Positions 5,490 to 31,164 are shown, counted from the stretch's first letter. The stretch: 64,000 nucleotides of DNA from Alphaproteobacteria bacterium (GCA_017470165.1 JAFUEX010000024.1:75398-139397); one strand, 5' to 3'. A program made the numbers and translations. Notes: a model not told the origin generated them from the sequence alone.

Positions 5490-5566
5490 CGCGGGGTGGA
5501 GCAGTTAGTTAGCTCGCTGGTTTCATACTCCAGAGGTCGATGGTGCAAATCCATCTCCCGCAACCA
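5490..5566 (+). tRNA. tRNA-Met (anticodon CAT), initiator-like, encoded by the phage.
   Basis: 77 nt beginning CGCGGGGTGGAGCAG and ending TCCCGCAACCA, similar to E. coli tRNA-fMet. It has a C1:A72 mismatch, a TTCATAC anticodon loop, a perfect T-arm and an encoded CCA. Confidence 0.8.
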
Positions 5567-5660: not shown

Positions 5661-5745
5661 AGGACTGTAGCTCAATGGTAGAGCGTTCTGTGTGCACAGA
5701 TTAAACCGAGCAGTTTGTATGTGGGTTCGACTCCCGCCGGTCCGA
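5661..5745 (+). ncRNA. tRNA-like sequence with a non-canonical anticodon arm; possibly a tRNA pseudogene or decoy.
   Basis: Acceptor, D-arm (GCTC-AATGGTA-GAGC) and T-arm (GTGGG-TTCGACT-CCCGC) are canonical. The anticodon region is a perfect 14-nt palindrome (TCTGTGTGCACAGA), which gives a 4-nt loop. A long hairpin-forming variable region follows. Confidence 0.45.
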
Positions 5746-5883
5746 CCTATTACTTATGTCTGAGAGAACGCCGGTCGGATCGGCTTAAGACAAAACAGCT
5801 TAACCGAAAAGATTGGCAAGGAACACCGGATGGTTGCAAACGTCTGGTGTTTTCTTTTTGACTTTCAAGAAGAACGTGCTCCT

Positions 5884-13125: not shown

Positions 13126-14007
13126 ATGAATAATATTACCGTATTTAATTTTAATCAAAATCAAGTCAGAACTCAAACTATCGACAGCGAGCCGTGGTTT
13201 TGTTTGTCGGACGTTTGCGACGTGCTTAATATACAGAGATGTAGGATTGAGCGACTTTCTGCAGATGGGTGGATTAAAAATCAACTCATCGATAAATTAG
13301 GCAGATTTCAGGAAAGATATTTTATCAACGAACCGAACTTATACCGTTTAATTTTCCGTTCCAACAAACCACAAGCCCAAGCATTTGCCGATTGGGTATA
13401 TAATGAAGTGTTACCCAGTATTCGTAAAACCGGCGGTTATGGCTCTGTGGACGTTCCTGCGCTTGCCAAAGCTGTGGCAAATGAGTTGAAGTTTGTGCCG
13501 ACAACCGTGAGATTGCCTCTTGATGTGGAAGCGTTCTTCAGGAATTGTGTTGAATTGTCAGTCGCCGTTACGTCATGCGCAGAAACATACAACGCTTATA
13601 AAAAATGGTGTCAGTCCGAGGGTTATTGTCCGCTGACAGCCAATAAGCTCGGTCGCTCTTTGAAGGCTCTCGGCGTTCAAAAATGTTCAACTAGACGTGG
13701 TGAGAAGGCCTATCGTTTGGCATTAAAGGAGCCACAACCGGAGAATTACCGCTATAATTTTACTCCGGTGACGGAATTTTGCGGTGCCGGTGTGTATAAA
13801 AATAGGAGTGGTCAAGTCTTTCAGGCTATTGCCGGATTTGATGATAAGATTTTTTATACTTATTTTAATATGCATACCGCACGGGCTGAAGGCAAGAGCC
13901 ACGATATTCCGCTCAAGGTTTTTAATGCCAATGTCGTGGCAAAGATGACTTCCAAGACGGAGCTTATTCCTTTGGATGGTGAAATTGACTATGTTTCAGC
14001 TGATTAA
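13126..14007 (+). CDS. Bro-N domain antirepressor-like protein with a PriCT-like C-terminal domain.
   Basis: The N-terminal motif (FNFNQNQVRTQTIDSEPWFCLSDVCDVLNI) is typical of Bro-N/KilA-N. The C-terminal ~60 aa are homologous to the C-terminus of the phage primase at 16919-19414 (YKKWCQ...NKLGR...GEKAY). Confidence 0.6.
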   Translation: MNNITVFNFNQNQVRTQTIDSEPWFCLSDVCDVLNIQRCRIERLSADGWIKNQLIDKLGRFQERYFINEPNLYRLIFRSNKPQAQAFADWVYNEVLPSIRKTGGYGSVDVPALAKAVANELKFVPTTVRLPLDVEAFFRNCVELSVAVTSCAETYNAYKKWCQSEGYCPLTANKLGRSLKALGVQKCSTRRGEKAYRLALKEPQPENYRYNFTPVTEFCGAGVYKNRSGQVFQAIAGFDDKIFYTYFNMHTARAEGKSHDIPLKVFNANVVAKMTSKTELIPLDGEIDYVSAD

Positions 14008-14282: not shown

Positions 14283-14537
14283 ATGCCAATTATCGCTCGT
14301 TTTTATGGTCTGGTTATTAAAATGTTTTTAATCGGTAGCGAACATAATCCGCCGCACATTCACGTTGTTTATGGCGAATTCAGTGCTCTGTATAACATTC
14401 AGACGCTGGAATTAATGGAAGGTGATTTGCCATCACGCGCTGCTGCTATGGTTAAAGAATGGCTCAGTATTCATAAAGATGATTTAATGGAAATGTGGAA
14501 CAGCCAAAAATTCAAGACTTTGCCACCATTAAAATAG
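14283..14537 (+). CDS. DUF4160-family protein.
   Basis: 84 aa. The N-terminal pattern (IIARFYGLVIKMFLIGSEHNPPHIHVVYGEF) matches the DUF4160 family, which is usually paired with DUF2442. Confidence 0.55.
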   Translation: MPIIARFYGLVIKMFLIGSEHNPPHIHVVYGEFSALYNIQTLELMEGDLPSRAAAMVKEWLSIHKDDLMEMWNSQKFKTLPPLK

Positions 14538-14548
14538 GGAGGTGTCCG

Positions 14549-15037
14549 ATGTTTATTAAAATTAAAAAAATAGAGATTCTGCCGGATTATGCTATCAAGG
14601 CAACCTTTGATCATGATGTTGTCAAAACCTATGATTTTAAGCCTTTATTTGATAAATATCCGGTATTTGAGCCGCTTAAAAATGAGACGTTTTTTGCAAA
14701 CGCTGTTATTGATTGCGGTGGTTATGGTTTGATGTGGACTGATGATATTGATATTGATGCTGGGGAACTTTGGTATAACGGCATAACGACGCTTGATACC
14801 GAACAGGATATTGTAAATTATCTTAATGCCGTTGTTAATGAAACAGACACCAAGCTGTTTATCAAAGCTTTAAAAGATATTGCAAAGTCAAAAGGTGTTA
14901 ATGATTTGGCAAAAAAAATGGGAGTAAATCGTGAAAGCCTTTATAAATCGTTAGACGGTGAGCGCAAACCCAAGTATGAAACAATCGACAAGTTTCTACG
15001 GGCAATCGGCATGAAAATAACATTTTGTCCGGCATAA
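14549..15037 (+). CDS. DUF2442 domain fused to an HTH addiction-module-antidote-like domain.
   Basis: GGGAGG ribosome-binding site before the ATG at 14549. The N-terminus (IEILPDYAIKATFDHDVVKTYDF) is DUF2442-like. The C-terminus (KDIAKSKGVNDLAKKMGVNRESLYKSL) is HTH antidote-like. Confidence 0.55.
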   Translation: MFIKIKKIEILPDYAIKATFDHDVVKTYDFKPLFDKYPVFEPLKNETFFANAVIDCGGYGLMWTDDIDIDAGELWYNGITTLDTEQDIVNYLNAVVNETDTKLFIKALKDIAKSKGVNDLAKKMGVNRESLYKSLDGERKPKYETIDKFLRAIGMKITFCPA

Positions 15038-20190: not shown

Positions 20191-20442
20191 TTAGATGTTT
20201 AAAGCCTTGCGGTAGGTGTCGACCAAGAGCTCTTGCTCATCCCTATCCGCAGCGTTCATTTTACGCAGTTTTAAGACTACTCTCATAATCTTAACATCAA
20301 ACCCTGCGCCCTTTGCTTCGGCGAAAACGTCGCGGATATCGCTTGAAATGCCTTTCTTTTCTTCCTCTAGACGCTCGATGCGTTCAATGAGACTTGTTAA
20401 TCTATCGACGGCTATTCCGCCTATTTGGTTTTGTTCACTCAT
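20191..20442 (-). CDS. GapR-like DUF2312 nucleoid-associated protein.
   Basis: 83 aa with the GapR family signature (IERIERLEEEKKGISSDIRDVFAEAKGAGFDVKIMRVVLKLRK). Confidence 0.6.
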   Translation of the reverse strand: MSEQNQIGGIAVDRLTSLIERIERLEEEKKGISSDIRDVFAEAKGAGFDVKIMRVVLKLRKMNAADRDEQELLVDTYRKALNI

Positions 20443-22563: not shown

Positions 22564-23133
22564 ATGACACGTAATACATTAAACCAAGGTCCGAAGCGCG
22601 ATGTCAGCCCTCTGGGTAGAAAATTGCACCAGCTTATTCGTGCTGCGAACTATGATTATATTAAAGATTTTGAAAAAGAATCAGGGGTTCGCCCCGATTC
22701 GATTCGTCGCGTGATCGGCGGATATACCAAAAGTTTGCCATTTTCCGACCTACAAAAAGTTGCAACAACTCTTAAAATATCCGTTCAAGAGCTTATGACC
22801 GGATCGGCTGATGGCGAAGCGATTGCCACTTGCAATCTCGTTCCGGGCGCAAAAGAGCCATGTTGGTATCAGGTACATTCTGACGAAATGGCTCCAACAC
22901 TCAAAAGTGGCGACAATGTCCTCGTAGATACAGGCATCAGGACAGTTATTGAGGCCGGTATTTATTTGCTTGGAACACCATCCAGCACGGCATTCCGACG
23001 TATTTCTCACAACCCTGTTACTGGCAAATTGCGGGTTGAGGCCGACAATAAGACTTATTCATATGTTGAGGAAGTTGAGGCCGAAAAATTATCTATTAGA
23101 GGTCGTGTAATCGGAATCTTCCACCGAATTTAA
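22564..23133 (+). CDS. CI/LexA-like phage repressor (HTH plus S24 peptidase).
   Basis: N-terminal HTH and a C-terminal S24-like segment (SDEMAPTLKSGDNVLVD). Transcribed divergently from the early leftward operon. Confidence 0.65.
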   Translation: MTRNTLNQGPKRDVSPLGRKLHQLIRAANYDYIKDFEKESGVRPDSIRRVIGGYTKSLPFSDLQKVATTLKISVQELMTGSADGEAIATCNLVPGAKEPCWYQVHSDEMAPTLKSGDNVLVDTGIRTVIEAGIYLLGTPSSTAFRRISHNPVTGKLRVEADNKTYSYVEEVEAEKLSIRGRVIGIFHRI

Positions 23134-23292
23134 TAAAAAAATACCCCTTTAAAAGCCCTATTTTAAGCCGTTTTTGGATTTTTTTTCTAAAAACGGTATT
23201 TTTTTCTTGATTTTCTGTTTTAAATTGATTAAAGTCATTTTTGACGATTAAAGTCATTAAATACTTTTAACAGTTTAACACAGGGTTATTAA

Positions 23293-24120
23293 ATGAGTAC
23301 GATTATTCGATGTTCTTCTCTCTCGCACTATTCGGATTGCACCCGAAGAGCAGCGGCAAAAATGTTTTTCAAGGAAATTTCGGAAGAGTATGGATTTGAC
23401 CTGACGCTGGTTAACACCTCAGCTGGTGCTGCCGTCGGTACGGCCATGCATAAAGCTTTGGAAGCTGCGATTGTTCTGCGCTCCAAAGGCTTGCCGTATT
23501 CCGACGAAATTAAAAAGGTTGCTGAAACATCCATTCTTGAAACGGTCCGTGAGGGTATTGTCTGGGATGATACGACGTTTGATAAGGCGACCGGTGTAAT
23601 GCAGGCCGTCCGTCAGACTCACTCAATCTTGGACGTTATGCCGGATTTACAGGAGATTGCCATTGAGGGCGAATTTACCGCCGATCTTGGCGACGACTTT
23701 ATTTTGTCCGGACATATCGACATCCGGGGACGTGAGGGAGAGTTGAATACGATTCAAGATTTTAAATCCGGTACGACGGCGCGCGTTAATATTCCGCAGT
23801 ACGGCGGTTATTCTCTACTTACCAGAACGGCCGGTTATAAAGTCGATCTACTCCGTGAAATATACGCCAAACGTGTCGGCAAAACAAAAGCCCAACCGGC
23901 TCCGGTCATTAAGGACTACGAACCGGCTATGGCTGAGAATTTCGCGTGGGCGGTTATAAAAAAGATCAAATCGGATATGCAGACTTTTCGCAAGACTGGA
24001 TCTCCGTGGGTTTGGTTGCCGAACCCGAACTCTATGATGTGCTCTCCGCATTATTGTCCTGCGTATGGCACAAAATTTTGCAAATGCCGTTCATTAAAGA
24101 AAGGAGAAAATAATGGCTAA
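23293..24120 (+). CDS. PD-(D/E)xK exonuclease, Cas4/RecB-like, with a C-terminal Cys cluster.
   Basis: HIDIRGREGELNTIQDFKSG is a D...E-x-K-type motif. The C-terminal CSPHYCPAYGTKFCKC is an Fe-S-like cluster. Confidence 0.5.
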   Translation: MSTIIRCSSLSHYSDCTRRAAAKMFFKEISEEYGFDLTLVNTSAGAAVGTAMHKALEAAIVLRSKGLPYSDEIKKVAETSILETVREGIVWDDTTFDKATGVMQAVRQTHSILDVMPDLQEIAIEGEFTADLGDDFILSGHIDIRGREGELNTIQDFKSGTTARVNIPQYGGYSLLTRTAGYKVDLLREIYAKRVGKTKAQPAPVIKDYEPAMAENFAWAVIKKIKSDMQTFRKTGSPWVWLPNPNSMMCSPHYCPAYGTKFCKCRSLKKGENNG

Positions 24121-24940
24121 CGAAATTGTAACAAAAGAACCGCAAAATGCCGTTTCTACGGATATTCTGTCAGACTTTACGGTTTTTGAAAACGCTCAGA
24201 GAATTGGCAAGATACTGACGCAGTCCGCAATCATTCCATCCAATTTCCAAAATAATCTGCCGAATGTCATGGTTGCTTTGGAGATTTCATGCAGGAATAA
24301 ATTGTCGCCTATCGTCGTGATGCAGAATTTAAATGTTATTCAAGGGCGTCCTTCCTGGTCCTCTAAATTCATTATCGCCGCATTAAGCACGAGCCGTGTG
24401 TTAAATCTTCACTATGAGCTTGTCGAAGATGGAGAGATTGAAGTTCCGGGCGGTTTTAATGGCGCAAAAAAGAAAATTAAAAACTTAAAATGTCGCGCAA
24501 TTGCCAATGATCGCAAAACAGGCGAAGAGCGCATCGGTCCATGGGTAACCATGCAAATGGCCATTGCCGAGGGCTGGTATAGTAAAAGCGGGAGTAAATG
24601 GCAGACAATGCCTGAGGTTATGATCCGCTACCGTGCTGCGACATTCTTCGCGAATGTTTATTATCCGGATTTGTCAGTCGGTATCGATGTCGCCGATGAT
24701 GACGCTTCAGCTCCGGCCAATGTTCCGGCTGTAAATCGTGAAACAGTAACGACCGGTGAAATTGTTGAGCCAGCTCCTGAAGCCCCGGCAAAACCAAAAC
24801 GCAAAAAAGAAGAACCAAAAACGATTGAGGCAGAGGCCGAGCCTGTTACCGTAGAAGCTGAACCGGTTGAAGATAAACCGGCTCAGGTTGTGGCTCCGCA
24901 GACAGACAATGAAGATGCATGGGGGGCTTTCGATGATTAA
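24113..24940 (+). CDS. RecT-like single-strand annealing protein.
   Basis: GPWVT...MPEVMIRYRAATFF resembles the RecT C-terminal motif (GPWVTHW...KTAIRRLFK). The tail is acidic/Pro-rich. It is coupled to the upstream nuclease. Confidence 0.5.
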   Translation: MANEIVTKEPQNAVSTDILSDFTVFENAQRIGKILTQSAIIPSNFQNNLPNVMVALEISCRNKLSPIVVMQNLNVIQGRPSWSSKFIIAALSTSRVLNLHYELVEDGEIEVPGGFNGAKKKIKNLKCRAIANDRKTGEERIGPWVTMQMAIAEGWYSKSGSKWQTMPEVMIRYRAATFFANVYYPDLSVGIDVADDDASAPANVPAVNRETVTTGEIVEPAPEAPAKPKRKKEEPKTIEAEAEPVTVEAEPVEDKPAQVVAPQTDNEDAWGAFDD

Positions 24941-26585
24941 AGCAACAGTTAAAGATTTTATGGGTTGCTCATCCGCCGAAATTGTCGCGGACAAAGTGGC
25001 TCTTTTGCTTGGTTTAAACGGTCAAGGGAAGACAAGCTCGTTACTTCCTATTTCAGCGGCTCTGCGCGGTGGTGTTCCTTTGGGTTTGCAAAAAACAAAA
25101 GCCGGAATGCTGGTTAAGACCGGCGCAGGTGTTTCTTCTATCGTTTTAGAGAATGATACATCAAAGGTTTCGGTTACTTGGCCAAAATGCGAACGACGCG
25201 CCGAAGGTGCAGACGCTCCTGAAGCTTCAGATATTGCCGTCGGTGCGATTAAATTTCCATTCATGCCGGATAAAGACAAAGTTGAGCTGTTACGTGGACT
25301 TTTGAAGTGTGAGCCTAAAAAAGAGGATTTATTCTCCGCTTTGCAGTCAAAAGGTTTGTCTGAGAAAGTTTGCGAGATTGTCTGGCACAGCATTGAGGTT
25401 GAAGGCTGGGATGCTTCCCTTGATCGTGCCAAAGAAAAAGGCCGGAGCTTAAAATCTCAATGGGCATTAAATGCCGGGGAAGCATACGGCGAAAAAAAAG
25501 GCGCGAACTGGTTCCCGGTTGGCTGGGAGAATGACCTTGAGGGATTGTCTGCAGAAGCTTTGGAGACAGAAATCACAACCGCGCGGGCGGAGCTTGAGTT
25601 CAAAATTGCCAATCAGGCTGTTTCTGAGGATGAGTTGGCTCGCCTTCAGGAGATCGCTTCTAAAATTGAAGAATTGCGAGCGGCTCATAATTCAGCCGTC
25701 GAGGCTTTTAATCAAAAAGGCCTTGAACTAAAGAATGCGCAGGATGCCCGCAAAAAATTGCCGGAATTACCTCGTTATGATTTGGTTTGTCCTCATTGCG
25801 GCAAGCCGGTCGCGTATGAGAATGGCAAACTCGTTGAAGTAAAGCAAACAATATCTGATGATGAACGCGCAGAAATGGAGCAAAAAATCCTTGATGCAGA
25901 TAATGCTGTCAGTAAAGCTACGCGCGAATTGTCCACATCCAAGACAGAGGTTGCCCTTGCCGAGCAGAAAGTAAAAGAGGCGGAGAAGGCTTCTGAAGAA
26001 TATCTGGCCAAAAAGGACAAGACTGTTTCGCAGGTAGAAGTTGACGAGGCTCGCGAGGCCGTTCGTAAATCTGAGGCTCGCCGTGATGCCTTTAATAAGT
26101 ATCACGAGGGCGTTCGTATCCATAATAATATCATTGAAAATCAAAAAATAATTGATGTTTTGGATCCGGAAGGCATTCGTCGTGAATCGCTTCAAAAAGG
26201 CCTTGATAATTTTAACGGCGATCTTGAGGCTCTTTGTCGTGTTGCTTGCTGGCAAAACGTCACGGTTGACGGAGATATGTCTGTTAATTACGCCGGTCGT
26301 CCGATCGTTCTTTGCTCGGAGAGTGAAAAGTTCCGCGCATTCGTAACCCTGCAATGCCTGATTGCTGATCTTGATGGTTCTTCGGCGGTGGTTATTGATG
26401 CGGCTGATATTCTCGACAGCAAATCGCGCGCCGGTTTATTCAAGCTCTTAGCTTCTCAGGACTATTGTTCATTTGTCGGTATGACGGTCAGCAGGCCGGA
26501 TAAAGTGCCAAGCCTTCAAAAGCTCGGCATTGGCCGGAAGTATTGGGTTGAGAGTGGTATTTGTGAGGAGATCTACAATGGCTGA
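24933..26585 (+). CDS. SbcC/Rad50-like SMC-type ATPase with a zinc hook.
   Basis: Walker A (GLNGQGKTS), a long coiled-coil-like middle region with CPHCGKPV (CxxC hook), and a C-terminal Walker B/D-loop-like VVIDAADILD. Confidence 0.55.
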   Translation: MIKATVKDFMGCSSAEIVADKVALLLGLNGQGKTSSLLPISAALRGGVPLGLQKTKAGMLVKTGAGVSSIVLENDTSKVSVTWPKCERRAEGADAPEASDIAVGAIKFPFMPDKDKVELLRGLLKCEPKKEDLFSALQSKGLSEKVCEIVWHSIEVEGWDASLDRAKEKGRSLKSQWALNAGEAYGEKKGANWFPVGWENDLEGLSAEALETEITTARAELEFKIANQAVSEDELARLQEIASKIEELRAAHNSAVEAFNQKGLELKNAQDARKKLPELPRYDLVCPHCGKPVAYENGKLVEVKQTISDDERAEMEQKILDADNAVSKATRELSTSKTEVALAEQKVKEAEKASEEYLAKKDKTVSQVEVDEAREAVRKSEARRDAFNKYHEGVRIHNNIIENQKIIDVLDPEGIRRESLQKGLDNFNGDLEALCRVACWQNVTVDGDMSVNYAGRPIVLCSESEKFRAFVTLQCLIADLDGSSAVVIDAADILDSKSRAGLFKLLASQDYCSFVGMTVSRPDKVPSLQKLGIGRKYWVESGICEEIYNG

Positions 26586-26787
26586 TAAGGATGATATTGT
26601 AACTGCGATTGACCCGAAAACGCTATCAAAACGCTGGAATGTGTCCACCAAGACGCTGTCTGCTTGGCGCACGGCTGGTCGCGGTCCGAAGTTTTTCTAC
26701 GCGAACGAGGATGACAAGTCCTCTGTTCGCTACCCATTGAAGGAAATTGAAGCCCAAGAGGCTCGGCTTCATGATCACAGCCTTTAA
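26578..26787 (+). CDS. Excisionase/AlpA-family HTH protein.
   Basis: LSKRWNVSTKTLSAWRTAGRGPKF is typical of phage Xis/AlpA DNA-binding domains. Confidence 0.5.
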   Translation: MADKDDIVTAIDPKTLSKRWNVSTKTLSAWRTAGRGPKFFYANEDDKSSVRYPLKEIEAQEARLHDHSL

Positions 26788-27354: not shown

Positions 27355-27499
27355 TTTATTTTGTCGCCATTTTTGGCTTCATGTGTTAACCCTCGGCGGT
27401 TTTTGTTCAACAAAACACGGAATGTATGAAATTCCGGGCAATATTTATATTGACTACTGTCCGAAGTGCCATTCTATACGGGGGCGCCATGAAAGATAA
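27335..27499 (+). CDS. 54-aa zinc-ribbon protein.
   Basis: MLQKIHSLFCRHFW...CPKCHSIRGRHER. It is embedded in the longer 27260-27499 track ORF in the same frame. Confidence 0.3.
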   Translation: MLQKIHSLFCRHFWLHVLTLGGFCSTKHGMYEIPGNIYIDYCPKCHSIRGRHER

Positions 27500-28118
27500 G
27501 GAAATCACAGCCGAAATCATCCGCAGATTGCGCTTAATGCCGGAACATAGGAGAGATATTTATTTCCCTGAATTCCGCTGGTGCGCAGGTGTGGCTGGTT
27601 CGCGCCGTGCAGACGCATTCTTTATTCTTGCGCGTCCGCCTTATTTTTCCGTTACCTATGAAGTTAAAGCAAATCATTGGGATTTTGAGCGGGATCTGCA
27701 GAACGCAGAAAAGCATAGCAAAGCTCGGCAATACTCAAACATCTTCTATTATGCGGCTCCGGCCGGTGCTATTCGTCCGGAAGAGTTACCGGAGTGGGCT
27801 GGCTTGGTTGAGTTTGATTTATCAATTCTGGCCGATGAATACACACAAGGTGCAATGGTTGTCAAGCAAGCCCCGCTTCATGACAGAGAGGATCCGGGTT
27901 GGGATTTGATCGCAAGCATTGCAAAACGGCTTCAGGATCCTGCGTTTCGTTTCGAGGCTCACGGTATGCACCTGATTTCAAATGATCAGCTCATGCAGTT
28001 GAAGTCTTTAATCGGTCAGCAGGTCCAAGCAAATAAAATTCTGCAGGCCGGATCCTCGGCAATGATGTCGGCTTTGGCTATTGTCAGCAAAATTTTTAAC
28101 CGAAAGGACAAGCTATGA
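27489..28118 (+). CDS. MmcB-like PD-(D/E)xK family protein.
   Basis: AGSRRADAFFI...YEVKANHWDFERD...NIFYYAAP resembles the MmcB/DUF1052 pattern. Confidence 0.4.
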   Translation: MKDKEITAEIIRRLRLMPEHRRDIYFPEFRWCAGVAGSRRADAFFILARPPYFSVTYEVKANHWDFERDLQNAEKHSKARQYSNIFYYAAPAGAIRPEELPEWAGLVEFDLSILADEYTQGAMVVKQAPLHDREDPGWDLIASIAKRLQDPAFRFEAHGMHLISNDQLMQLKSLIGQQVQANKILQAGSSAMMSALAIVSKIFNRKDKL

Positions 28119-29495
28119 CAGAGATTGTTTTTGTTGACTTGTTCTCCGGCATCGGCGGGTTTGCGGAAGGTTTCCGCCGGGCTGGATTAAAATTCAGATA
28201 TCACGCTTTTTCCGAAATAGATAAAAACGCGATTAGTATTTATAAAAAACACTTTCCTGAAGCAAAGGAGTTAGGCGATGTCCGAACAATTAGAGATTTT
28301 TCAACCATCAGAAATCAACGGGGGGGGGTGCCGCTGGTCGTCACTTTCGGATTTCCTTGTCAAGATCTATCAGTTGCTGGCAAAAGGCGAGGACTTGAAG
28401 GCTCTCGAAGCGGGTTATTCTTTGAAGCAATGCGGGTTATCCGAGAATTGCAACCCGATGTTTTTATCTTTGAAAACGTCAAAGGTCTTCTCTCAAGTAA
28501 CAAAGGACAAGACTTTGTCCGCTGTCTGCAGGAAATTGCCGACCTTGGGAATTATGACGGGCAATGGCAGCTTGTCAATACTAGCTGGATATTACCCCAA
28601 AATCGAGAGCGGATTTACTTTGTCGGCACTCTTAGAGGACAAACCAGACGCCAAGTATTTCCTCTCGTCGACAGCGGTCAGTCGGATTCTCGGTTACAAG
28701 GACAACGAGCTTGCTGCCTTACAGCAAGATATTTCCAGTCAACCGGCGGCGGAACGTATTTTATTGAACGTAAACAGCATAAAGAAGGCAACGATGAAAA
28801 ATCCGCAAGGAACAAGAATTAACACGATTGACGGCAATTCTGTCGCTTTGCAGTCATGCGCTGGCGGCATGGGTGCAAAAACAGGACTGTATTGCGTTCC
28901 GCGTGGCAAGCGCGACGGCGGTTTTAAGGACGGTGACACTTGTCCGACAATAACCGCGAACGCCTTTCAGCAAAATAATTTCATCGTTCCCGTTTTAACG
29001 CCTGATCGCGTAAATAAAAGGCAAAATGGACGCCGCTTCAAAGAAGCCGGAGAACCTTCATTTACCCTGACAACGCAAGATAGACACGGCATTTATGACG
29101 GCATTGATATCCGTCGTCTGACACCTCTTGAATGTGAACGTCTACAGGGTTTTCCGGACGGTTGGACGGAGACCGGCGAAAATGGGCAGAGAATGTCGGA
29201 CACGGCACGTTATAAGGCACTCGGCAACGCGGTCAGCGTGTGCTTTCCTGAATTGATCGCAAAATCTTTGTTTATGGAGAATGAAATGACAGCAGACGTT
29301 ATTCAGTTCCCTCAAAAGAAAAAGGAGAACTTGAACGCGGTCTATGTCCTTTTGGATACGGTCCGCAAAATGCACGATGAGGACGGCTATCGCTTTGCTT
29401 CCTCGGAGTTGAAAGAAAACAGCCAAGGCAAGGTGGTCTTGACTTTGGTTATGGATAAACCAGATCCGGACGACCTTCCGGACATAACAGCATAG
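28115..29495 (+). pseudogene. C5-cytosine DNA methyltransferase disrupted by a single frameshift near 28640.
   Basis: Frame A has motif I (FSGIGGF), motif IV (GFPCQDLSVAGK), motif VI (ENVKGL) and motif VIII (QNRERIYFVG). Frame B continues with AKYFLS, motif IX (RRLTPLECERLQGFPDGW) and motif X (YKALGNAVSV). A G9 tract lies at 28320-28328. Confidence 0.7.
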
Positions 29496-29504
29496 GAGAA
29501 TAAA

Positions 29505-29792
29505 ATGGCAAATCAAAGTGTGGGCAATGGCGCCCTTTTCAAAAACGATAAGCAGGGCGTTGATACGCGTCCGGATTATACCGGAACTGCAAAAATATGG
29601 GACAAGGAGTTTTTCTTGTCAGCTTGGATTAAAAAAAGCCAGTCTGGCAAAACTTATATGTCGCTTTCGTTCAAAGTAAACGAGAAAGGATCGCAGGCTT
29701 CAGGTAGTCAAGCTACTGCTCAACCTACTGGTCAACCTGCTGACCAAGCTCCGGCTTCTTCAGCCCCGGTTGATGATGATATTCCGTTCTAG
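29505..29792 (+). CDS. Short SSB-like protein with a C-terminal DDDIPF tip.
   Basis: 95 aa with an N-terminal ~60-aa globular part. The middle is a Q/P/A/S-rich low-complexity linker. The protein ends in the exact SSB acidic tip DDDIPF. Confidence 0.5.
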   Translation: MANQSVGNGALFKNDKQGVDTRPDYTGTAKIWDKEFFLSAWIKKSQSGKTYMSLSFKVNEKGSQASGSQATAQPTGQPADQAPASSAPVDDDIPF

Positions 29793-30147: not shown

Positions 30148-31164
30148 ATGAAAAAAACAGCAGAATTTGTGTCATTAGGGCATCCGGATAAAACAGCGGA
30201 TTTTATTTCGAGTTATGTGCTTGACCGTTTAATTGAGCAGGATCCTCACGTAAAATATGCGGTTGAGGTCATGGTTAAAGATAACGAGGTTATTTTGGGC
30301 GGTGAAGTCAAGGGTAACGTTGAGTTCTCTCTAGCCACCCTTCAAACTTGGATTTATGATGCCTTGGCAAAAATAGGCTATACCGAGGACTATTCAAAGC
30401 GGTGGGGTGTCAATGCCATCAATCCCTTAAAGGTTAACGTCACGAATTTAATCGGTAAACAGTCAGGAGATATCAACCAAGGCGTTGAAGCTGACGGCTG
30501 GGGTGATCAAGGTGTCTTTGTTGGCTACGCTTGCAAAAGTGAAGGCAAAGTCAGCCGAGAGCTCTTCCTTGCGCGTAAATTAAACCACGCTCTCTATGAA
30601 ATGGCCAAAACGAGCGAAAATTTTGGAATTGATATTAAAACGCAAATAACAATGAATGACATCGGCGGTGTCGAAACGGCGATTGTTGCGATTCCCATGC
30701 TCAAAGAGATTGATCTGCGCGACTTTGTCACTTCTGTTCTTGGCGAGGAGCCGGAGAATATCATTATAAACGGGACTGGTCGTTATGTTATGCATTCTTC
30801 TATTGCTGATTGCGGGGTTACCGGTCGTAAGCTCGCTTGCGACTTCTATTCTACAACTTGCGCCGTCGGTGGTGGTTCGCCATGGACAAAGGACGCCAGC
30901 AAGGCAGACGTTTCATTGAATATCCTTGCTCGCAAATTGGCTGTTGAAAATTTAGACGGTGCGCATGAATGCTGGGTTTATCTTTCTTCGTGCATTGGTC
31001 GCGCCGATTTGCCGTCCGTTGAGGTTGTTCGCAAGACTGGCATGGCGATCGGCTATAGAGATGTCAAGATTGGCAAACCGTCAGAAATTATCGAGGAGCT
31101 TGGGTTGAATAAGCCGGTATTCGCCGACTTGTGTGCTCGTGGTATTACCGAGGTTTATAAATAA
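30148..31164 (+). CDS. S-adenosylmethionine synthetase-like protein (short MetK).
   Basis: The N-terminal GHPDKTADFISSYVLD matches the MetK GHPDK signature. 338 aa against ~384 aa for bacterial MetK. Confidence 0.55.
   Translation: MKKTAEFVSLGHPDKTADFISSYVLDRLIEQDPHVKYAVEVMVKDNEVILGGEVKGNVEFSLATLQTWIYDALAKIGYTEDYSKRWGVNAINPLKVNVTNLIGKQSGDINQGVEADGWGDQGVFVGYACKSEGKVSRELFLARKLNHALYEMAKTSENFGIDIKTQITMNDIGGVETAIVAIPMLKEIDLRDFVTSVLGEEPENIIINGTGRYVMHSSIADCGVTGRKLACDFYSTTCAVGGGSPWTKDASKADVSLNILARKLAVENLDGAHECWVYLSSCIGRADLPSVEVVRKTGMAIGYRDVKIGKPSEIIEELGLNKPVFADLCARGITEVYK

What the first reader, a model, noticed from the sequence alone, without database searches (positions are those of the whole stretch)
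23293..26585. Recombination module: Cas4-like Fe-S nuclease, RecT-like annealase and an SbcC/Rad50-like ATPase with a CxxC zinc hook.
Instead of a RecE/lambda-Exo partner, the RecT-like annealase is paired with a PD-(D/E)xK nuclease carrying a four-Cys C-terminal cluster (Cas4/AddB-like).

It is followed by a 550-aa SMC-like ATPase with a central CPHC hook but no adjacent SbcD-like nuclease.

This atypical three-gene arrangement may be a phage recombination/anti-RecBCD system, or it may process the DNA ends the Cas4-like nuclease generates.
Basis: partly seen in the sequence, partly recalled or inferred. Interest (0 to 1): 0.55.

Follow-up and report, generated by a model that had tools for sequence, protein, structure and literature searches.

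The report
Phage recombination module with mini-Rad50
A prophage carries three overlapping genes, a Cas4-like nuclease, a RecT-like strand-annealing protein and a small Rad50-like ATPase without an Mre11 partner; the trio is a widespread conserved phage recombination cassette whose ATPase has no functional study in the literature I could search.

Summary
Three overlapping + strand genes lie at 23293-24120, 24113-24940 and 24933-26585.

- **Gene 1** is a PD-(D/E)XK nuclease of the Cas4-like family PF12705. Its conserved cysteines follow the Cas4/AddB pattern: one N-terminal and three C-terminal.
- **Gene 2** is a divergent RecT. The protein itself misses Pfam RecT, but relatives at 36-44% identity pass the cut-off, and predicted viral RecT structures are the best fold matches.
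- **Gene 3** is a 550-aa SMC/Rad50-like ABC ATPase with a coiled coil and an invariant CPxC at its apex.

The arrangement is not atypical. Of 42 related loci that could be assessed, 39 have an exonuclease upstream and 40 have a gene in the annealase slot, always in the same order. These loci include the cultured phages phi297, Magia and PY223. Nuclease and annealase families are swapped freely; the ATPase stays. No SbcD/Mre11 gene occurs in any locus.

The ATPase family has about 2,250 representatives. It lacks the Walker B glutamate and the H-loop histidine, and carries an invariant acidic residue at +3 instead.

Most likely this is an exonuclease-annealase recombination module with an accessory, Mre11-independent mini-Rad50 that clamps or tethers DNA ends. 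That role is inferred. Interest is moderate.

The parts
22564..23133 (+). CI/LexA-like repressor with a Peptidase_S24 domain. Context: it lies upstream of the module on the same strand.
   Evidence: PF00717, 4.2e-8
23167..23197 (+). Terminator-like hairpin followed by a T-run. It separates the repressor gene from the module.
   Evidence: sequence
23227..23258 (+). Two exact copies of GATTAAAGTCATT spaced 19 nt apart, just upstream of the nuclease gene. A candidate operator, by inference only.
23293..24120 (+). Cas4-like (PF12705) PD-(D/E)XK nuclease. Motifs are E125, D143, D156-x-K158 and Q169..Y173. Conserved Cys are C16, C250, C255 and C263, a putative Fe-S cluster.
24113..24940 (+). Divergent RecT-family annealase. 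The core spans residues 20-195. The disordered tail (197-275) ends in the acidic/aromatic tip DNEDAWGAFDD.
24933..26585 (+). Mini-Rad50/SbcC-like ABC ATPase of 550 aa. It has an N-lobe, an antiparallel coiled coil, a CPHC apex and a C-lobe.
25011..25037 (+). Walker A, GLNGQGKTS (residues 27-35).
   Evidence: Lys in 240 of 240 members
25788..25799 (+). CPHC (residues 286-289), the putative zinc hook at the apex of the coiled coil.
26313..26336 (+). ABC signature-like motif, CSESEKFR (residues 461-468).
26388..26417 (+). Walker B and D-loop, VVIDAADILD (residues 486-495). There is no Glu after the Walker B Asp. The acidic D492 at position +3 is invariant.
26530..26787 (+). Small excisionase-like or HTH regulator immediately downstream. 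An HTH gene follows the ATPase in phage PY223 too.
   Evidence: phrog_66, 2.4e-4
27426..28118 (+). 'DNA repair protein' of phrog_5429 in the same operon. Reading the RADAF...YEVK stretch as a PD-(D/E)XK motif is my own, by eye, and was not checked against any profile.
   Evidence: phrog_5429, 1.4e-22; sequence
29505..29792 (+). Small SSB-like protein ending in the canonical SSB tip DDDIPF, in the same operon.
   Evidence: phrog_18154, 4.9e-11; sequence

Best explanation
This is the early recombination cassette of a temperate phage integrated in an uncultured alphaproteobacterium. It is an exonuclease-annealase (SynExo or Red/RecET-type) module with a third, accessory component.

Inferred from family knowledge: the Cas4-like Fe-S nuclease resects the 5' strand of double-stranded ends. 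The RecT-like protein coats the resulting 3' single strand and anneals it to a complementary strand.

The 550-aa mini-Rad50 probably dimerises in two ways: through ATP-dependent head engagement, and through zinc shared between two CPxC apices. It would then clamp or bridge DNA ends so that the nuclease and annealase can act on them, without an Mre11/SbcD nuclease. The canonical Walker B glutamate and H-loop histidine are missing across the family. The protein is therefore expected to be a slow, switch-like ATP-gated clamp, possibly using the invariant +3 Asp, rather than a fast hydrolase.

Shown here: the three family assignments, the conserved motifs, the conserved gene order with interchangeable partners, and the absence of SbcD. 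Inferred: nuclease polarity, Fe-S and Zn binding, and the tethering role.
For: - **Family assignments:** (nuclease and RecT; SMC/Rad50 fold; the Rad50 N-terminus is the best PDB sequence match at 2.6e-8).
- **Coupling:** 8-nt overlaps join the three genes.
- **Synteny:** of 42 loci with a strong ATPase match and at least 3 kb upstream, 39 carry a PD-(D/E)XK exonuclease (28 Cas4-like, 11 RecE-like DUF3799). 36 carry a recognised protein in the annealase slot, and 4 more carry a relative of phrog_3657. The order is always nuclease, slot protein, ATPase.
- **Partner swapping:** partner families are mixed within ATPase clades.
- **Cultured phages:** phi297, Magia and PY223 show the same order.
- **Operon context:** the same operon encodes an SSB-like protein and a phrog_5429 'DNA repair protein'. 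The divergent operon encodes a helicase, a D5-type primase and a resolvase-like protein.
- **Motifs in 240 members:** Walker A Lys 240/240, CPxC 239-240/240, signature Ser/Glu conserved.
- **No SbcD:** no Mre11/SbcD motif triad in any ORF of 64 sources.
Against: - There is no experimental evidence for any of the three activities.
- The RecT call for this protein is transitive. It gets no Pfam hit itself, no PDB fold match, and no hhalign match to the canonical RecTs of related loci.
- The hook similarity is short and not specific. An archaeal RNA polymerase zinc motif scores better than the Rad50 hooks.
- Without the catalytic Glu, the ATPase may not hydrolyse ATP at all.
- The same RecT subfamily works with other nucleases and without this ATPase in other phages. 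The ATPase is therefore not needed for annealase function in general.
- Free swapping of partners argues against a fixed protein-protein complex.
Confidence: 0.6

Rival explanations
1. The ATPase is the module's end-protection or anti-host-nuclease component. It would be a functional analogue of lambda Gam, P22 Abc or Mu Gam. An ATP-locked, non-hydrolysing clamp would sit on phage DNA ends, or act as a decoy, and block RecBCD/AddAB rather than promote synapsis.
For: - Well-studied phage recombination modules often carry a third, anti-RecBCD gene (established knowledge). No Gam or Abc homologue turned up among the window ORFs that were scanned.
- Loss of the Walker B Glu in 236 of 240 members fits a long-lived ATP-bound clamp.
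- The ATPase is independent of partner family.
Against: - No similarity to any known RecBCD inhibitor.
- Rad50-like proteins are not known to inhibit RecBCD.
- The invariant +3 acidic residue and the conserved signature motif suggest a working ATP cycle.
- This role partly overlaps the main explanation and does not exclude it.
Confidence: 0.2
2. The ATPase and the PD-(D/E)XK nuclease form an SbcCD-like ATP-regulated nuclease, with the PD-(D/E)XK enzyme taking the place of Mre11/SbcD. The complex would open hairpins or protein-blocked ends and feed RecT.
For: - A PD-(D/E)XK exonuclease lies upstream in 39 of 42 loci, and SbcD is absent everywhere.
- A strongly conserved patch (GWDAxxxxAKEKGxxLKGxWExxTGExYG, residues 158-190) sits near the base of the coiled coil, where Mre11 binds Rad50 (the position is inferred from the secondary structure).
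Against: - Two unrelated nuclease families (Cas4-like and RecE-like) alternate next to closely related ATPases. This is hard to reconcile with a dedicated docking surface.
- The nuclease is never the immediate neighbour; the annealase-slot gene always lies between them.
Confidence: 0.15
3. The ATPase, with or without the nuclease, is a prophage-encoded defence or superinfection-exclusion system of the Lamassu, OLD or Gabija kind. Its place next to RecT would be incidental.
For: - Foldseek lists Lamassu LmuB among the top structural matches.
- PADLOC gives a weak LmuB hit at 2.5e-5.
- Profile hits to the N-terminal ABC regions of OLD, PtuA and GajA.
Against: - The PADLOC hit covers only the coiled coil, and there are no LmuA or LmuC partners.
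- The N-terminal similarities are generic to ABC ATPases.
- The gene overlaps RecT and follows an annealase-slot gene in 40 of 42 loci.
- It lies in the early replication and recombination operon, not in a moron position.
Confidence: 0.05

Closest known systems
Lambda Red (Exo/Beta/Gam) and Rac RecET: two-component exonuclease-annealase (SynExo/EATR) phage recombinases
   Same: An exonuclease gene and a RecT/Redbeta-superfamily annealase gene sit side by side in an early phage operon. A phage SSB lies nearby. Their presumed job is single-strand annealing at double-stranded ends.
   Different: The exonuclease is a Cas4/AddB-like Fe-S PD-(D/E)XK enzyme, not lambda Exo/YqaJ or RecE. There is no Gam. 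A third, conserved Rad50-like ATPase gene overlaps the annealase gene. The 2023 EATR review (PMC11611040) mentions neither Cas4-like nucleases nor an accessory ATPase of this kind.
Rad50/SbcC: Mre11-Rad50, E. coli SbcCD, T4 gp46/47
   Same: Both have an N-terminal Walker A lobe, an antiparallel coiled coil, a CPxC at the apex and a C-terminal lobe with a signature-like motif, Walker B Asp and D-loop. Rad50 is the best PDB sequence match, and SMC and Rad50 heads are the best fold matches.
   Different: From my own knowledge, it is about half the length of SbcC or Rad50. It has no Mre11/SbcD gene nearby in any of 64 sources. It lacks the Walker B Glu (A/G/R instead) and the H-loop His, and has an invariant acidic residue at +3. 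About 20 residues after the CPxC form a beta-hairpin. It is always linked to an annealase-slot gene.
Annotated but uncharacterised modules in Pseudomonas phage phi297 (gp15/gp14/gp11), Burkholderia phage Magia (gp51/gp50/gp49) and Bordetella phage PY223 (y223_00010/00009/00008)
   Same: Same gene order and the same ATPase family (25-34% identity). Magia and phi297 share the RecT subfamily. PY223 also shares the divergent SF2 helicase and primase operon.
   Different: phi297 has an FtsK-gamma gene inserted between RecT and the ATPase. PY223 uses a phrog_3657 protein instead of RecT. The window's copy comes from a gut or rumen alphaproteobacterial lineage; the nearest named genomes are Alphaproteobacteria MAGs at 57-69% identity.
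Cas4 and AddB nuclease domains (Fe-S PD-(D/E)XK exonucleases), including Cas4-like PF12705 proteins of phages
   Same: Same catalytic motifs and four conserved Cys, arranged as one N-terminal plus three C-terminal. PF12705 membership. Phage-borne, as described for many PF12705 members (PMC5704561).
   Different: It is not a CRISPR-associated Cas4 (no PF01930 hit, no cas genes). From my own knowledge, the Cys spacing CX4CX7C differs from the CX2CX5C of AddB and Cas4.

Membership tests
Cas4-like / AddB-type Fe-S PD-(D/E)XK nucleases (Pfam PF12705 PDDEXK_1) | Pfam PF12705 score above the gathering cut-off | tested here: met
   24.4 bits against a cut-off of 22, E 3.2e-5. Most homologues carry PF12705.
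Cas4-like / AddB-type Fe-S PD-(D/E)XK nucleases (Pfam PF12705 PDDEXK_1) | Catalytic motifs E...D...(D/E)xK and QxxxY | tested here: met
   E125, D143, D156, K158, Q169 and Y173 are invariant in 16 sequences down to 31% identity.
Cas4-like / AddB-type Fe-S PD-(D/E)XK nucleases (Pfam PF12705 PDDEXK_1) | [quoted passage not shown] | tested here: met
   C250, C255 and C263 are invariant. C16 is present in every sequence with an intact N-terminus. The spacing CX4CX7C is unusual.
Cas4-like / AddB-type Fe-S PD-(D/E)XK nucleases (Pfam PF12705 PDDEXK_1) | Bound Fe-S cluster and 5'-to-3' exonuclease activity | not testable with these tools
   Needs UV-vis or EPR spectroscopy and nuclease assays.
Bona fide CRISPR Cas4 (PF01930/DUF83) | PF01930 match and association with cas genes | tested here: not met
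   No PF01930 hit at E <= 1. The only related hit is the weak phrog_1706 'CRISPR/Cas system associated' at 8e-4. No cas gene turned up among the ORFs scanned from the phage part of the window; host-side ORFs beyond 50 kb were not scanned.
RecT family (Pfam PF03837) | PF03837 score above the gathering cut-off for the protein itself | tested here: not met
   No Pfam hit at E <= 1.
RecT family (Pfam PF03837) | Clear homology to proteins that do pass PF03837 | tested here: met
   Homologues at 36-44% identity (phmmer 1e-41 to 1e-47) score 25.9-38.8 bits against a cut-off of 24. 17 of 24 alignment members hit RecT. phrog_561 'RecT-like' at 1.6e-53.
RecT family (Pfam PF03837) | RecT/Redbeta/Rad52-type fold | tested here: inconclusive
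   BFVD Foldseek: the top hits are viral 'RecT family' proteins (1e-14), with Bet, Rad52 and Erf weaker. PDB Foldseek found nothing at E <= 0.001. hhalign to canonical RecTs from related loci was negative.
RecT family (Pfam PF03837) | ssDNA binding and annealing activity | not testable with these tools
   Needs an annealing or recombineering assay.
Rad50/SbcC (SMC-like ABC ATPases with a zinc hook) | Bipartite ABC head: N-terminal Walker A, then C-terminal signature motif, Walker B Asp and D-loop | tested here: met
   GxNGxGK[TS]S, LSxSExxR and hhhhD...ILD are conserved in 240 members. SMC and Rad50 heads are the top fold matches.
Rad50/SbcC (SMC-like ABC ATPases with a zinc hook) | Catalytic Glu right after the Walker B Asp, and an H-loop His | tested here: not met
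   Position +1 is A124, G79, R20, D9, E4 of 240 members. The H-loop position is M-T or M-M. Position +3 is D224 or E14.
Rad50/SbcC (SMC-like ABC ATPases with a zinc hook) | Long antiparallel coiled coil between the two head lobes | tested here: met
   The AF2 model (pLDDT 89) has helices over about 144-274 and 309-438. The coil is shorter than in SbcC or Rad50.
Rad50/SbcC (SMC-like ABC ATPases with a zinc hook) | CxxC hook at the apex of the coiled coil | tested here: met
   C 240/240, P 237/240, C 239/240. It aligns with CPVCG of the P. furiosus Rad50 hook 1l8d. The sequence match is not specific, because an RNA polymerase zinc motif scores higher. Zinc binding was not tested.
Rad50/SbcC (SMC-like ABC ATPases with a zinc hook) | Partner Mre11/SbcD phosphoesterase encoded next to it | tested here: not met
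   No ORF with the ordered D.H / GD..D / GNH[DE] motifs in the window or in 63 related loci. No metallophosphatase hit in any of the scanned window ORFs.
Lamassu (LmuB SMC-like protein plus LmuA effector and LmuC) | LmuB model match over the full length, with LmuA and LmuC neighbours | tested here: not met
   Only a coiled-coil match at 2.5e-5 (residues 221-432). The nuclease and RecT give no PADLOC hit.

The most novel reading that the evidence does not exclude
The ATPase defines a large, uncharacterised branch of the Rad50/SMC superfamily, with about 2,250 representatives at 50% identity. In this reading it works without Mre11 and without the canonical catalytic glutamate. It would act as a universal ATP-gated DNA-end tether for single-strand-annealing recombination. 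It would accept any of at least four annealase-slot families and two exonuclease families, perhaps by docking the acidic, aromatic C-terminal tips that these slot proteins share. On this reading, phrog_3657 and the phiC31 Gp3-like 'recombination directionality factor' family (PF18897) would also be annealases.
Probability: 0.3. Interest if true: 0.65.

Novelty: new variant of a known kind. Interest (0 to 1): 0.45.

Why it matters
Phage exonuclease-annealase pairs are the basis of recombineering, and their efficiency outside E. coli is limited by unknown accessory factors. A conserved third component found in thousands of phage lineages is an obvious candidate helper to test in Pseudomonas, Burkholderia, Bordetella and alphaproteobacteria.

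It would also be a natural example of a Rad50-type zinc-hook ATPase that works without Mre11 and without the canonical catalytic glutamate. That bears on which Rad50 functions, tethering versus nuclease control, can stand alone.

If the ATPase proves dispensable, the finding reduces to an ordinary prophage recombination cassette.

Tried and rejected
- **DNA search against phages:** a blastn search of the region found no match. The element is known only at protein level.
- **Direct PDB and NCBIfam sequence searches** with the three proteins gave only marginal hits.
- **RecT fold against the PDB:** Foldseek found nothing, and a profile search of the RecT alignment against the PDB found nothing. 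hhalign and hmmsearch between this RecT subfamily and canonical RecTs from related loci were negative. The RecT call therefore rests on PHROG, on transitive Pfam hits and on BFVD fold matches.
- **Hook-only profile:** the Rad50 hooks appear (E 0.018 and 0.037) but are beaten by an archaeal RNA polymerase zinc motif. I do not treat sequence similarity of the hook as proof.
- **Defence-system reading:** rejected after the PADLOC search.
- **SbcD elsewhere in the prophage:** none found. The left end of the prophage lies outside the window.
- **SSAP C-terminal tip as a marker of the ATPase:** rejected. Acidic, hydrophobic tips also occur widely among the RecT homologues listed, whose gene context was not examined.
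- **Genome scan:** the first scan with the 25-sequence alignment failed for lack of a conserved pattern. It was repeated with 9 sequences.
- **Literature:** nine searches found no functional study of this ATPase. Iyer, Koonin and Aravind 2002 (BMC Genomics 3:8) could not be opened.
- **Model coordinates:** these were not available, so the position of D492 relative to the ATP site could not be checked.
Full report
**Observation**

The window carries three + strand ORFs at 23293-24120 (275 aa), 24113-24940 (275 aa) and 24867-26585. The third most likely starts at the ATG at 24933. That start gives 550 aa and an 8-nt overlap with the stop of the second gene. The first and second genes also overlap by 8 nt. 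A terminator-like hairpin at 23167-23197 separates the cassette from an upstream S24-peptidase repressor gene (22564-23133). Two exact GATTAAAGTCATT repeats follow at 23227-23258. The stated coordinates and content are therefore correct.

**Gene 1: the nuclease**

- It passes Pfam PDDEXK_1 (PF12705) at 24.4 bits against a cut-off of 22. It matches phrog_69 'exonuclease' at 7e-10.
- Ninety-two homologues were found, most of them carrying PF12705.
- In 16 sequences down to 31% identity, E125, D143, D156, K158, Q169 and Y173 are invariant. So are C250, C255 and C263. C16 is present wherever the N-terminus is intact. C7 and C265 are not conserved.

This is the Cas4/AddB arrangement of one N-terminal and three C-terminal cysteines, not a purely C-terminal cluster. 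By the usage of Hudaiberdiev et al. (PMC5704561) it is a 'Cas4-like protein of pfam12705'. That group is common in phages and is not CRISPR-associated. It is not a bona fide Cas4, since there is no PF01930 hit. Fe-S binding and 5'-to-3' polarity are inferred from the family.

**Gene 2: the annealase**

- The protein itself gets no Pfam or NCBIfam hit. It matches phrog_561 'RecT-like ssDNA annealing protein' at 1.6e-53.
- It has 735 homologues. Seventeen of 24 aligned members hit Pfam RecT.
- Seven homologues at 36-44% identity pass the RecT gathering score, at 25.9-38.8 bits against 24.
- The AF2 model has a confident core (residues 20-195) and a disordered tail.
- Foldseek against the PDB found nothing. 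Against predicted viral structures, the best matches are 'RecT family' proteins (1e-14), followed more weakly by Bet, Rad52 and Erf.
- hhalign against the canonical RecTs found in related loci was negative.

I file it as a divergent RecT-family member by transitive homology.

**Gene 3: the ATPase**

Ninety-seven homologues were found with the word-indexed search. The more distant ones carry AAA_23, AAA_15 or SMC_N domains. The AF2 model (pLDDT 89) shows four parts:
- an N-terminal beta/alpha lobe;
- helices over about 144-274;
- a short beta-hairpin region containing CPHC (residues 286-289);
- helices over 309-438, then a C-terminal lobe.

Foldseek matches the heads of SMC, cohesin, Smc5/6, Rad50, Lamassu LmuB and RecF at probability 1.0. 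A family profile finds Rad50 N-termini first in the PDB (2.6e-8). It also finds the Rad50 hook fragments 6zff and 1l8d. A profile of the hook region alone aligns CPxCG with the CPVCG of P. furiosus Rad50. An archaeal RNA polymerase zinc motif scores better, however, so that similarity is not specific. The case for a zinc hook is mainly positional. The family has exactly two invariant cysteines, at the apex of the coiled coil of a Rad50-like ATPase.

**Unusual features of the ATPase family**

An exhaustive profile search finds 2,249 representatives (50% identity clusters) at E <= 1e-30. In 240 members:
- the Walker A lysine is invariant;
- the hook is C-P-x-C in 237-240;
- the signature-like motif is LSxSExxR;
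- the residue after the Walker B aspartate is A, G or R in 223 members, and Glu in only 4;
- position +3 is Asp or Glu in 238;
- the H-loop position is Met-Thr or Met-Met, not a histidine.

The family therefore lacks the canonical catalytic glutamate and the histidine switch of Rad50/SMC proteins. It may use a relocated acidic residue. Whether it hydrolyses ATP cannot be decided here.

**Context in the window**

The window holds a prophage from its left edge to about 35 kb:
- lambda-type capsid, protease, portal and gpA terminase genes on the - strand;
- a D5-type primase, a GapR-like protein and an SF2 helicase in an operon divergent from the cassette;
- downstream of the cassette, in order: an excisionase-like HTH gene, a phrog_5429 'DNA repair protein', a C5 methylase in two overlapping frames, an SSB-like protein ending in DDDIPF, and a SAM-synthetase-like protein;
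- host genes (CtpA-type protease, phosphoglycerate mutase, a penicillin-binding protein) from about 38 kb.

No ORF in the window has the Mre11/SbcD motif triad.

**Comparative evidence**

tblastn finds the ATPase in 22 phage records from Pseudomonas, Burkholderia, Bordetella and Achromobacter. Three were examined:
- In Pseudomonas phage phi297 the order is PD-(D/E)XK nuclease, RecT-like protein, a small ORF, an FtsK-gamma protein, then the ATPase.
- In Burkholderia phage Magia it is exonuclease, RecT-like protein, AAA ATPase.
- In Bordetella phage PY223 it is PD-(D/E)XK nuclease, a hypothetical protein, 'SbcC'. This sits next to a divergent helicase and primase operon, as in the window.

Scans of IMG/VR and of GTDB genomes gave 60 more loci. 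Of 42 loci with a strong ATPase match and at least 3 kb upstream:
- 39 have a PD-(D/E)XK exonuclease on the same strand (28 Cas4-like, 11 DUF3799/RecE-like);
- 36 have a recognised protein in the slot directly before the ATPase;
- the remaining 4 with a nuclease have a protein that hhalign links to phrog_3657 at 95.6%.

The slot proteins are this RecT subfamily (23 loci), canonical PF03837 RecT (5), phrog_3657 (5) and Gp3-like PF18897 (3). The order is always nuclease, slot protein, ATPase. Nearly all combinations occur. Partner families are intermixed within ATPase clades. None of the 64 sources has an SbcD/Mre11-like ORF. Conversely, the same RecT subfamily occurs without the ATPase, for example with a YqaJ exonuclease in phage Pan5.

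The ATPase is thus a conserved but optional third member of phage exonuclease-annealase cassettes. The arrangement is common rather than atypical.

**Mechanism**

The best-supported reading is a Red/RecET-like single-strand-annealing system. The nuclease resects, RecT anneals, and a phage SSB assists. A homodimeric mini-Rad50 holds or bridges DNA ends in an ATP-dependent way without a dedicated Mre11.

Three rivals remain:
- an end-protection or anti-RecBCD role, which is not exclusive of the main reading;
- an SbcCD-like complex in which the PD-(D/E)XK enzyme replaces Mre11, weakened by the free exchange of nuclease families;
- a defence system, which is poorly supported because PADLOC gives only a coiled-coil LmuB hit.

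**Literature**

Steczkiewicz et al. 2021 (PMC8093625) note SMC and uncharacterised AAA ATPase genes next to phage recT/redbeta. The 2023 review of exonuclease-annealase recombinases (PMC11611040) mentions neither Cas4-like nucleases nor an accessory ATPase of this kind. I found no functional study. The library lacks most subscription journals, so this absence is weak evidence.

**Verdict**

The cassette is a member of a widespread, already-sequenced module. Its third component is an uncharacterised variant of Rad50: small, Mre11-less, with a non-canonical Walker B. Interest is moderate, at 0.45.

Noticed in passing
Related loci L001-L056 (slot protein directly upstream of the ATPase); window 24905-24937: Proteins of at least four families in the annealase slot (two RecT branches, phrog_3657, Gp3-like) mostly end in a long acidic or Pro-rich tail. 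The tip is usually ...[DE]LF-COOH, or acidic plus Trp/Phe (window: DNEDAWGAFDD). This resembles the C-terminal tips of SSB and T7 gp2.5, or the end of the beta-clamp-binding motif. It may be a docking peptide for a shared partner. Acidic/hydrophobic tips are also common among the RecT homologues listed, whose gene context was not examined, so the tip is not shown to be tied to the ATPase.
   Followed up: partly
L008 6229-7476, L011 3-992, L026 1-1545, L027 6784-7992, L051 2542-3639, L056 1850-2956: Gp3-like proteins (PF18897, the phiC31 'recombination directionality factor-like' family) occupy the annealase slot between a RecE-like or Cas4-like exonuclease and the ATPase. This suggests that the family, and phrog_3657 likewise, may be single-strand annealing proteins.
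   Followed up: partly
window 28115-28822 and 28278-29495: A C5 cytosine DNA methylase is split over two overlapping ORFs in different frames. The N-terminal half of PF00145 is in the first and the C-terminal part in the second. This could be a frameshift, a sequencing error or a pseudogene.
   Followed up: no
window 30148-31164: The prophage encodes a protein with all three S-adenosylmethionine synthetase domains, just downstream of the methylase and SSB-like genes.
   Followed up: no
window 29505-29792: A very short (95 aa) SSB-like protein ends in the canonical bacterial SSB tip DDDIPF.
   Followed up: no
window 20191-20442 (-): A GapR-like DNA-binding protein (PF10073, 3.9e-32) lies in the phage replication operon. 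This fits an alphaproteobacterial host.
   Followed up: no
window 5490-5566, 5661-5747 and 27389-27489: ARAGORN calls a tRNA-Met and an odd tRNA with a two-base anticodon label in the prophage, between the portal and terminase genes. It also calls a 101-nt 'tRNA-His (atg)' overlapping the start of ORF 27426-28118. The last two look doubtful.
   Followed up: no
window 23227-23258: Two exact 13-nt direct repeats (GATTAAAGTCATT) lie 19 nt apart, between the repressor's terminator and the nuclease start codon. They are candidate operator sites.
   Followed up: no
window 14495-15037 and 13126-14007: A fused DUF2442 and HI1420-downstream antidote-like protein, and a Bro-N/Pox_D5 protein, sit between the structural and replication regions of the prophage.
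   Followed up: no
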